Source: Octopus vulgaris (Eukaryota). From it: 64,000 nt of DNA. Positions 39,895 through 52,031 of this stretch are shown one piece after another (position 1 is the first letter of the stretch; each line of letters begins with the position of its first letter). The position numbers were made by a program, and so were the translations under genes. The stretch spans positions 12,152,001 to 12,216,000 of the forward strand of contig OX597838.1 in NCBI GenBank assembly GCA_951406725.2, in the 5' to 3' direction. The notes under the pieces are model-generated. The model did not search any database. It saw only the letters and a list, made by a program, of their open reading frames with translations, and was not told where the DNA came from.

Positions 39895-39959
39895 TTTATT
39901 ATATAGAAGGAGCTTCTACAGGACTAGAACTGTTTCATTCAAGAGAAATCTTCAGGAAG

Positions 39960-39960
<1 letters not shown>
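39895..39960 (-). ncRNA. Type I hammerhead ribozyme (canonical core) plus AATAAA embedded in (TA)n
   Basis: Minus strand GCTTC-CTGAAGA-T-TTC-TCTT-GAA-T-GAA-ACAG-TTCTAGTC-CTGT-A-GAAGC (39960-39912), then AATAAA (plus-strand TTTATT at 39895-39900). Confidence 0.75.
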
Positions 39961-40053
<93 letters not shown>

Positions 40054-45749: not shown

Positions 45750-45840
45750 AATTTGGTACGATCGTTTCGTACTACATCATTTTATTAAATGTTGTAAGTA
45801 TTACAACAGTTTCAAAATGCTGAGCACTCATCAGCCAATT
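45750..45840 (-). ncRNA. Type I hammerhead ribozyme, canonical core, very long stem II, palindromic helix III
   Basis: Minus strand TTGG-CTGATGA-GTGCT[CA..CATTTTG..TGTTGTAA-TAC-TTACAACA..TAAAATG..TG]AGTAC-GAA-ACGATCGT-A-CCAA; G10.1-C11.1 pair present, GUA triplet. Confidence 0.85.
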
Positions 45841-46212
45841 ATAGAGGTTTTCCATTATATATATATACGCATTTATATAAACACACATATATGCGTATTC
45901 ATATATACATATACACTTGCGCGCTCAAAGATCCAAAGAAGAGGGATTGGAGCAGATAAAATCCAGGTTACATGTTTCATAGGCAGCGGTATCTCAGACG
46001 TAGTAAATTATCCAAACGAGGATATACAACAACCCCTGTTGCTAACCGAGAAGTATGAAATTGACTTTTTTCAGTTTATCGTACTTCCATACGGGAAAAA
46101 CTCATAACCTTCAGCGTCAGTTAACCACTATTGTTCCTGAAAGTTTTCTTTATATCTTCTACGGATTGCCTCAAGCTCAATAAATTCCTATACCTTGATC
46201 CTTGGATCCTAC

Positions 46213-49859: not shown

Positions 49860-49942
49860 ATCCACCTGTACAAGTTAAAGTCTCTTGAGCACTACGAAGT
49901 GAATTCTATACGGGGAATATCTGTCTCTCATCTATCTATCTA

Positions 49943-49978
<36 letters not shown>

Positions 49979-49981
<3 letters not shown>

Positions 49982-50365
49982 AAATAGGGTAATAATAAAT
50001 TATTATTAATAATGGCCTAGCACAAAAAACGAATTAGTCATTAGACTATATATTATTCATATAGAAATACAATAAGAGGCTTCCAAATAGGAAAGCGTTG
50101 TGCTAGAATACAAAAAAGGGATAAATTTACGAATGGAATGAAAAATAAAAACATTTGCCATCTCCGCTATTTCCCAGACCGACGGTTTCTAACTATTTCC
50201 AGCAAAAAAGCATTTGCTGAAGGCCAGTTTTCTTCAGTGGGACAGCCTTAATAATCCTGACATACAGACTGCTAGATCCACATGTAGATCTAACGGTTTG
50301 TAAATCCCAACTTTTCAAACCTCTGCGCAGACGCAAATCATACCCGGCAACAGAGAGGATGCCGG
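49979..50365 (-). mobile_element. ~385-bp HHR-bearing insert between two (TA)n tracts (Penelope pseudo-LTR or retrozyme-like)
   Basis: Bounded by (TA)n on both sides and contains the HHR at 50172-50242; classification is inference. Confidence 0.65.
50172..50242 (-). ncRNA. Type I hammerhead ribozyme, canonical core, GUC triplet
   Basis: Minus strand TCCCA-CTGAAGA-A-AACT..TTCAGCAAA-TGCTT-TTTGCTGGA..AGTT-A-GAA-ACCG-T-CGGT-C-TGGGA. Confidence 0.82.
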
Positions 50366-50399
<34 letters not shown>

Positions 50400-50980
50400 C
50401 ACACAGCCATCTCAATGGCTGAATTGACATGTTGACACGATATTGTAGTAGAGAGATGACATGCTAGGGCGACAACGGGATCTTTTCGATTACTGTTACA
50501 GATTTGAAAATTTGAAAATTAATTGGAAATTACCAAAGTGGGTATATCGATGTAATTTTTCACGCTGAATTCTAATTCTAAAATTTATTAAAAAATTATA
50601 TGTTTCGACGCCTGCTAAATTTTAGCCAATCAGAAGACAAGGAATCGGAGGCCGTCATTCTCTGCGTGATAGCTGTCTCTTATAAAATGATCCTCGTCAA
50701 AACTTACGGTAGGGGTTGCATTAGTGATAGTGCCACAGTGGCGTGAGAACAACGTCCTTGTTAAAATAGAAACAAGGTGGACAATAGCTTTTCTTGTTAT
50801 TATAGAAACAGACACCAATGTGAGATTTACGGTCATGTGCATAATGGTGGCTTTCGATTGGCTAAAATTACCCAAAATTAGCAAACTTTAAAAGCTATTA
50901 ACCTCCTATAAGGCAAAAATGCATTTTGTCTTCATTTTTAGCCAACAGAACTAAATCGGTGTAAGCAAATTTGAAAACAA

Positions 50981-51212
50981 TATTTCGGTCATATTATACA
51001 GAGAGAATCCCTTGAGAAAGACATCATGCTCGGAATGGTCAGTGGCAAGAGAGGAAGAGGCCGACCAAGAACCCGCTGGCTTGACACCATCAAGAGTGAT
51101 ACCGGAATGGACATCGTCAGTCTGAAGGAAGCGGCTCAGGATAGAACTGACTGGAGGACACTGATCCAACGAGTGACCGAGAGTCGACTTCGACTGAGCG
51201 GTTAGAGAGAGA
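50981..51212 (+). mobile_element. RTE-BovB-like LINE 3' end, uninterrupted frame 50981-51205
   Basis: YFGHIIQRESLEKDIMLGMVSGKRGRGRPRTRWLDTIKSDTGMDIVSLKEAAQDRTDWRTLIQRVTESRLRLSG*, then a short (GA)n. Confidence 0.9.
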
Positions 51213-52031
51213 TGAACCAAATTTAAAAAACTAGGAAATCTATGACAACAACCGAAAAGATACGGACAACGTGAGAGAGATGTTATAACGAAGGACATTG
51301 ATATAGAGCGAATGCCGAGCAGCTGATAGAGCGGTACGTTATGTAAGTATCGTAGTTTATTTAGAGACCGAAACAATAAAGAACGCATGAGTTTGAAAAT
51401 GAAATAAGAAGACGACAGAGAGAGATAGAGAGACAGACAGACAGAGACACAGAAAGAGAGAGCTTGTGAGAGATATGTTATAACGAAGCAAAGTAGACGA
51501 AACTGGAGAGGATAACAGCAAATGTATGTTTGCAAAAGCAGAAAATAAGCGAAGTTAAGAAAGGATGGAAGATTTGATGCGTAAGACAAAAGTCAGAAGT
51601 GCTTACCATAACGGCATTTTAGTTAAAAGCTGACGGCGGATTAAATAAGATTTAAAAATGCTGTTGTATATTAAGACATTAGAACTCTACTTTCATCTAG
51701 TCAACCGTGAACTGCTTGTATACATATACACCCACTCACATTCAACACGCGCACACGCTCGTACATACATGCATATATACATATAAAAATGCATTCATAT
51801 ATGCTCACACACATACATACATACATGCATACATACATACATACATACATACACGCTAAAACTTTTATAACACACAAGAAAACCTGGAGATATATACACC
51901 CTCACGATATGACTGTATTTCTGTCGGTGCGTCCATGTGCTGCACGGAACTTCTATACTATGGTGAATATACGCATTGTACGCATGTGTTATGTATGGAT
52001 ATATGTATGACTGTGTGTGTCTGTATATGTG

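What the first reader, a model, noticed from the sequence alone, without database searches (positions are those of the whole stretch)
49979..50365. Discrete ~385-bp element between (TA)n tracts carrying a canonical GUC hammerhead
The minus strand of 50172-50242 has stem I TCCCA/TGGGA (extendable by GCTG/TAGC past a bulge), CUGAAGA, a two-part stem II and helix III ACCG-U-CGGU. The 1-nt loop cannot close as drawn, so it must either fold as a shorter stem or pair in a dimer. The insert size fits a solo pseudo-LTR or retrozyme monomer (inference).
Basis: partly seen in the sequence, partly recalled or inferred. Interest (0 to 1): 0.7.

Follow-up and report, generated by a model that had tools for sequence, protein, structure and literature searches.

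The report
Penelope-riding hammerhead retrozyme copy
This is one slightly shortened copy of a roughly 430-base non-coding repeat, present in well over a hundred places in this animal genome, that carries a predicted self-cutting hammerhead RNA and is likely pasted into TA repeats by the enzyme of a Penelope-type jumping gene; it is a new member of a known kind of element.

Summary
The hammerhead and the insert are real, but the insert is neither a whole unit nor a solo pseudo-LTR. It is a 5'-truncated copy (about 40 nt missing) of a ~430-nt non-coding unit. A 23-mer of it has 176 exact matches genome-wide; sister families lie at 65-70% identity. Copies join head to tail with no ORF, end at two fixed points ~80 nt apart in (TA)n, and often carry an inverted second arm. 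In 36 of 39 classifiable two-armed insertions each arm uses a different end. These are Penelope-like element (PLE) hallmarks. Stems I and II show compensatory changes, and helix III is palindromic in every main variant, so dimer cleavage is likely. The ribozyme is not fully canonical: this copy has A opposite A at 10.1-11.1, no Rfam model hits, and the monomer is predicted to fold inactive. Cleavage, circular RNA and expression are untested. No autonomous partner with a homologous pLTR was found; intact Hydra-clade PLEs are candidates by architecture only. Verdict: new member of the animal non-LTR retrozymes (non-autonomous PLEs). The scan reported similar families before on other DNA.

The parts
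49976..50367 (-). 5'-truncated copy of the ~430-nt unit (unit positions ~39-432); both ends share TA microhomology with the target
   Evidence: 92.5% to the family majority over 387 positions, 94.0% to the nearest held copy
50172..50242 (-). Type I hammerhead: stem I 50242-50238/50176-50172; CUGAAGA 50237-50231; GAAA 50189-50186; GUC with predicted cut between 50177 and 50176
   Evidence: sequence; covariation
50190..50230 (-). Two-part stem II closed by A(50230) opposite A(50190), i.e. an A.A mismatch at 10.1-11.1; sister family C has A-U here
50178..50186 (-). Palindromic helix III ACCG-U-CGGU; variants ACCGUUCGGU, ACCAUGGU, ACCGCGGU, ACCAUUGGU
   Evidence: homoduplex -11.3 kcal/mol, no hairpin on its own
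49976..49992 (-). Fixed 3' end I (...ACCCTATTTTATTAT), inferred reverse-transcription start; used by this copy
   Evidence: 64 of 197 segments end here, 50 of 64 next to (TA)5
50047..50062 (-). Internal TA-like site = 3' end II of other copies (second inferred start); the ~80 nt between the two ends correspond to the PLE 'tail'
   Evidence: 79 of 197 segments end here, 57 of 79 next to (TA)5
50103..50158 (-). Intron-like segment after an ATG (GT...YTAG in the family, GC donor in this copy); unproven
   Evidence: pattern in 105 of 118 family A, 22 of 26 family B, 21 of 29 family C copies; no chance control, no spliced read seen
49930..49978 (.). (ATCT)n/(AT)n microsatellite target, downstream side of the element
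50366..50400 (.). (TA)n microsatellite target, upstream side; no target-site duplication can be told

Best explanation
The stretch is a 5'-truncated genomic copy of a ~430-nt non-coding, head-to-tail repeat unit with a predicted type I hammerhead, likely copied and inserted into (TA)n by the protein of an autonomous Penelope-like element. Shown: family, unit length, head-to-tail junction without ORF, two fixed 3' ends, TA targets, 5' truncation, inverted arms that use different ends, covarying hammerhead stems. Inferred: tandem loci are transcribed; two hammerheads pair through palindromic helix III and cut, giving unit-length RNA that may circularise (cleavage by the family ~0.6, circle as template ~0.4); a PLE GIY-YIG endonuclease nicks (TA)n and the RT starts inside the RNA at end I or end II, often on both target strands, one start each. 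This copy came from one priming at end I that stopped ~40 nt short of a full unit. It has one hammerhead predicted to fold inactive and is ~6-8% diverged from its relatives, so it is probably an inert insertion.
For: Copy number. Unit and junction: 16 full units of 419-449 nt; 71 of 134 loci cross the end-to-start junction, 53 of 197 segments exceed one unit, longest 802 nt; families B and C repeat at about 470-495 nt. Two ends with (TA)5 in 107 of 143 segments, against 15 of 54 for other ends and 7% background. Head-to-head arms in 67 of 146 loci; 36 of 39 classifiable pairs are end I + end II, p=1.8e-8; arm pairs are closer (95.6%) than the median copy (89.6%) in 34 of 34. Hammerhead covariation. 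PLE hallmarks in print: PMC8557442 (passages, section 11), PMC11167929 (parts 1-2 of 4), PMC4209133 (parts 1-2 of 4), bioRxiv 10.64898/2026.07.22.740005 (parts 1-3 of 5). Intact 899-aa RT + GIY-YIG ORFs with DKT (Hydra clade) exist in this genome; related copies end in (TA)n about 60 and 200 nt after their own hammerhead.
Against: No autonomous partner with a homologous pLTR: local scores against pLTR/3' UTR stretches of three PLE families were within shuffle range. No pile-up of 5' ends at the cut (1 of 118 within 3 nt, 1.7 expected). Only 8 of 146 loci hold two cut sites in tandem; none is a long array. A.A or an unpaired A at the base of stem II should lower activity; PMC3088659 (passages) rejected hits with such mispairs. 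The 46 aligned hammerheads were picked from 114 scanner hits with intact cores, and the count of pairs with two-sided change was not above shuffles (188/500). 28 of 67 arm pairs had an unclassifiable end. Samples were biased towards long copies.
Confidence: 0.85

Rival explanations
1. Same element, but the hammerhead is not needed for mobilisation: linear read-through transcripts of tandem source loci are the template, and no circle forms.
For: No excess of 5' ends at the cut; 7 segments run through two cut sites uncut; longest segment 802 nt, under two units; in vitro the anole PLE used unprocessed RNA and ribozyme mutants inserted normally (PMC11167929, part 2); 8 of 9 Xenopus retrozyme dimers did not cleave (bioRxiv 2026.07.22.740005, part 3).
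Against: Compensatory changes in stems I and II and palindromic helix III variants persist across families only 65-70% alike, which implies selection on the fold. A family of 5'-truncated copies needs a way to regenerate more-than-unit templates.
Confidence: 0.35
2. It is the truncated 3' end (pseudo-LTR) of an autonomous PLE whose full copies I did not find.
For: A 390-nt truncated copy cannot itself be told from a pLTR; an ATG followed by an intron-like segment suggests pLTR ancestry; genome searches score only the best 40 candidates.
Against: In 31 linker matches none is preceded by an ORF and 26 run into the unit's own end. PLE ORF pieces near copies in 174 loci are separate insertions where viewed.
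Confidence: 0.08
3. A SINE-, MITE- or satellite-type repeat with a chance hammerhead-like motif.
For: No Rfam hit; the MFE does not form helix III.
Against: Compensatory changes, fixed 3' and ragged 5' ends, inverted arms, dispersal over most large contigs.
Confidence: 0.02

Closest known systems
Animal non-LTR retrozymes (Cervera & de la Pena 2020, PMC7229834, passages and section 14 read; Li, Clavereau & Pollet, bioRxiv 10.64898/2026.07.22.740005, parts 1-3 of 5 read)
   Same: Non-coding unit with one type I hammerhead, low GC (35% in L003's unit), head-to-tail copies, dispersed monomers, PLEs in the same genome; mussel units are 350-390 bp.
   Different: Mostly sub-unit to 1.5-unit dispersed copies with PLE-type inverted arms rather than arrays; A.A or unpaired A at the base of stem II; circular RNA and cleavage not shown.
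pLTR hammerheads of EN+ Penelope-like elements (Cervera & de la Pena 2014, PMC4209133, parts 1-2 of 4; Craig et al. 2021, PMC8557442, passages and section 11; Frangieh et al. 2024, PMC11167929, parts 1-2 of 4)
   Same: Short stem I, long stem II, palindromic helix III, 5' truncation, partial tandems, inverted 5' copy, tail at one end only, two internal RT starts, microsatellite target; (TA)n bias is reported for the Hydra clade.
   Different: No ORF; tail ~80 nt rather than 30-40 nt; no homology found to the autonomous pLTRs sampled here.
Non-autonomous Chlamys elements such as MRC1 (PMC8557442, passage)
   Same: Non-coding PLE derivatives with multicopy head-to-tail insertions.
   Different: Those resemble their autonomous partners at the 3' end and most Chlamys lack canonical hammerheads; here a hammerhead is present and the partner is unidentified.

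Membership tests
Type I hammerhead ribozyme | Core C3 U4 G5 A6 N7 G8 A9, G12 A13 A14 A15.1, U16.1, H17 in canonical order | tested here: met
   both halves intact in 71 of 85 loosely filtered copies anchored outside the core
Type I hammerhead ribozyme | Stems I and II supported by covariation | tested here: met
   two two-sided pairs each in stem I, lower and upper stem II; slid controls at most 47.8% paired
Type I hammerhead ribozyme | Standard pair at 10.1-11.1 next to the core | tested here: not met
   A opposite A in this copy; A precedes G12 in 68 of 71 family A copies; family C has A-U
Type I hammerhead ribozyme | Stable helix III in the monomer | tested here: not met
   3-bp form -16.9 against MFE -22.4 kcal/mol, ensemble probability 2e-5; palindromic, as in dimer-type hammerheads
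Type I hammerhead ribozyme | Self-cleavage after H17 | not testable with these tools
   indirect genomic test inconclusive
Animal non-LTR retrozyme | Non-coding unit of a few hundred nt with one type I hammerhead | tested here: met
Animal non-LTR retrozyme | Head-to-tail repeats with two hammerheads at some loci | tested here: met
   8 of 146 family A loci span two cut sites; two-site tandems also in families B and C; this window copy itself has one
Animal non-LTR retrozyme | Abundant circular RNA | not testable with these tools
   only assembled contigs were available
Non-autonomous Penelope-like element | 5' truncation, partial tandems, inverted 5' copy, tail at one end | tested here: met
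Non-autonomous Penelope-like element | Microsatellite insertion bias | tested here: met
Non-autonomous Penelope-like element | Sequence homology to the pLTR of an autonomous PLE | tested here: inconclusive
   none in the three families sampled; most PLE families of the genome were not sampled
Autonomous PLE or its solo pLTR | RT + GIY-YIG ORF between the repeats | tested here: not met

The most novel reading that the evidence does not exclude
These short elements record how PLE proteins integrate: one protein dimer primes both target strands, each at a different fixed start site of a circular, non-coding ~430-nt RNA, whose dimer-dependent hammerhead stays active with an A.A mismatch (or an unpaired A before G12) at the base of stem II, a variant I did not find described.
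Probability: 0.25. Interest if true: 0.6.

Novelty: new member of a known kind. Interest (0 to 1): 0.3.

Why it matters
The class is known, so the copy itself is ordinary. The family is a compact test system for two open points in PLE biology: how tandem and inverted insertions form, and what the hammerhead is for. The count of 36 of 39 two-armed insertions with one arm per end puts a number on the published remark that the tail is often at only one end, and links it to the two RT starts seen in vitro. A cleaving A.A variant would widen hammerhead search rules, which reject such hits.

Tried and rejected
Rfam: no hammerhead family at gathering score or E<=10. Expression: no RNA holder listed; four runs only guessed to be RNA gave short contigs of family members, no spliced or circular joint could be judged; no conclusion drawn. 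In-vivo cleavage footprint: 1 of 118 5' ends within 3 nt of the cut against 1.7 expected (by eye 3-4 lie within about 6 nt). Among copies longer than one unit, three start within 2 nt of the upstream cut (L011, L066, L213), a fourth (L143) proved an internal deletion, and seven run past it: inconclusive. My upstream-extension script was too noisy in AT-rich DNA and was not used. Partner search: Hydra-type family, L061/L198 RT family and L182 Neptune-type element show no homology to the unit; PLE ORFs near copies L017, L061, L209 and L226 are separated by repeats. I first took the extra A after CUGAAGA as private to this copy; wider sampling showed AAAC after the core in 14 of 71 copies, and family B has the same A.A. 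Lunse et al. 2017 was not held (one search fetched an unrelated paper), so I know it only through a review passage (PMC6765202); it, and supplements I did not open, may already show the 10.1-11.1 variant. Paper searches; their listings named no such cephalopod family, and an octopus repeat paper has no 'hammerhead' or 'ribozyme' in its main text (PMC13282606, passages).

Full report
Observation. The minus strand of 50242-50172 holds a type I hammerhead in canonical order: stem I UCCCA/UGGGA, CUGAAGA, a two-part stem II, GAAA, ACCG-U-CGGU and GUC, with the predicted cut between 50177 and 50176. The insert sits between (TA)n runs, ends about 49976 and 50367. Rfam finds no hammerhead here. The window is part of a 2.8-Gb animal genome; an octopus-like host is my inference and was not checked.

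Family. The insert gave 70 matches from the 40 best of 1805 candidates. Exact patterns gave 60, 176 and 35 hits with no control hits, so 176 is a lower bound. Contigs of three large runs with three organism codes also lay on the element (695, 714 and 493 contigs on the 1-kb stretch). Two sister families, B and C, are 70% and 65% identical to the family A majority. The window copy is 92.5% identical to that majority and 94.0% to its nearest held relative.

True unit. Sixteen full units measure 419-449 nt. The window copy lacks the first ~40 nt. In longer copies the unit's 3' end runs straight into its start: 71 of 134 loci cross this junction, and 53 of 197 segments exceed one unit, up to 802 nt. 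Of 31 linker matches fetched without regard to upstream DNA (31 of 35), 26 continue by eye into the unit's own end, four of them only briefly; five stop in TA repeats, an inversion or flank; none meets an ORF. So the family is a non-coding monomer, not the terminal repeat of a coding element. Families B and C repeat at about 470-495 nt.

Insertion signature. Segments end at two fixed points: end I (64 of 197) and end II about 80 nt further in (79 of 197). (TA)5 lies at 107 of these 143 ends, at 15 of 54 other ends, and at 7% of random positions. 5' ends are ragged. In 67 of 146 loci two arms meet head to head; of the 39 pairs with both ends classifiable, 36 combine end I with end II, 3 are II+II and none I+I (p=1.8e-8 against 0.5; 28 pairs unclassifiable). 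I tested this rule after reading it in an earlier scan note. Arms of one locus are more alike than the median copy in 34 of 34 pairs, but beat the best other copy in only 2: same subfamily, same molecule not shown. Published PLE features match: truncation, partial tandems, an inverted 5' copy and a tail often at one end only (PMC8557442, passages), and two internal RT starts with nicking and extension of both target strands (PMC11167929).

Ribozyme. On 46 copies chosen from 114 scanner hits, 96.8% of cells pair, with two-sided changes in stem I (A-U/G-C, C-G/U-A) and stem II (A-U/G-C, A-U/C-G, C-G/U-A); no shuffle reached the cell count or score, though the number of covarying pairs was not exceptional. 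Helix III is palindromic in all main variants, and ACCAUGGU leaves no loop for a four-pair stem. For this copy the monomer MFE (-22.4 kcal/mol) pairs the core CUGA with the 3' strand of helix III; the active fold with a 3-bp helix III costs 5.5 kcal/mol more, while the helix III homoduplex is -11.3. Dimer-dependent cleavage is therefore likely, as described for PLE hammerheads (PMC4209133). The departure from the canon is at 10.1-11.1. Family C pairs A-U there; family B, this copy and part of family A have A opposite A; most family A copies lack one 5' A and leave an unpaired A before G12 (68 of 71 have that A). U.U mismatches at this place are known (PMC3088659, PMC7229834, passages); I found no A.A case in what I could read, but Lunse et al. 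2017 was unavailable.

Partner. The genome holds many autonomous PLEs, including intact 899-aa RT + GIY-YIG ORFs with the DKT motif of the Hydra clade, a clade reported to target (TA)n. Related copies carry a hammerhead with a long stem II and palindromic CAUAUG, and end in (TA)n about 60 and 200 nt after the cut; our ends lie about 120 and 200 nt after it. No sequence homology to the unit was detectable in three families sampled, so the partner is unnamed.

Mechanism. Shown: anatomy, junction, ends, targets, covariation. Inferred: tandem loci are transcribed, paired hammerheads cut, unit RNA may circularise, and a PLE protein nicks (TA)n and copies from end I and/or end II. Against a required cleavage step: no excess of 5' ends at the cut, seven segments spanning two cut sites, and published in vitro data in which hammerhead mutants insert normally. 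Expression could not be judged. This copy, with one hammerhead and a one-armed truncated form, is probably inert.

Verdict. A new family of animal non-LTR retrozymes, i.e. non-autonomous PLE-type elements (PMC7229834; bioRxiv 10.64898/2026.07.22.740005). It works like, and files under, that class on all features testable here; it fails strict 'canonical hammerhead' on the 10.1-11.1 pair. Earlier scan notes describe similar families in this and other genomes; none matched this sequence. Interest 0.3.

Noticed in passing
window 45760-45842, minus strand (CTGATGA at 45834): A second type I hammerhead-like motif with long stem II and palindromic CGATCG helix III; a different repeat family.
   Followed up: no
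window 39910-39963, minus strand (CTGAAGA at 39955): A third hammerhead-like core with short stem II and a 14-nt segment after GAAA; the same motif occurs in L093 and L196.
   Followed up: no
window 50990-51215: Looks like the 3' end of a non-LTR (RTE-like, label recalled, not tested) retrotransposon ending before (AG)n.
   Followed up: no
window 50103-50158 minus; families A, B, C: ATG followed by a GT...YTAG segment of 55-79 nt conserved in three families; could be a relic PLE intron.
   Followed up: partly
L101-L130 (family B) and L249-L273 (family C): Sister retrozyme-like families with 3482 and 2529 first-look candidates; some B copies have U at core position 3 (L106, L116, L119, L126).
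   Followed up: partly
L274 (G000:C1:119516000-119525900), L283, L284: Intact 899-aa Hydra-clade PLE ORFs, in tandem at a 3.6-kb period; many hits with 899-aa open frames genome-wide suggest recent activity.
   Followed up: partly
L182 686-4260: Near full-length Neptune-type PLE (RT, CxxxxCxxC linker, GIY-YIG; clade label from recalled motifs) with frameshifts, beside a family A copy but separated by another repeat.
   Followed up: partly
L184-L202 and one search list: A PLE RT family with 12838 first-look candidates; about 120 of 150 scored hits have the same score, with open frames up to about 1200 aa.
   Followed up: no
flanks of many fetched loci (L012, L018, L034, L035, L039, L048, L055, L057, L119, L161, L169): Many further, unrelated type I hammerhead-like motifs with palindromic helix III, several with U.U or A.A at the base of stem II.
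   Followed up: no
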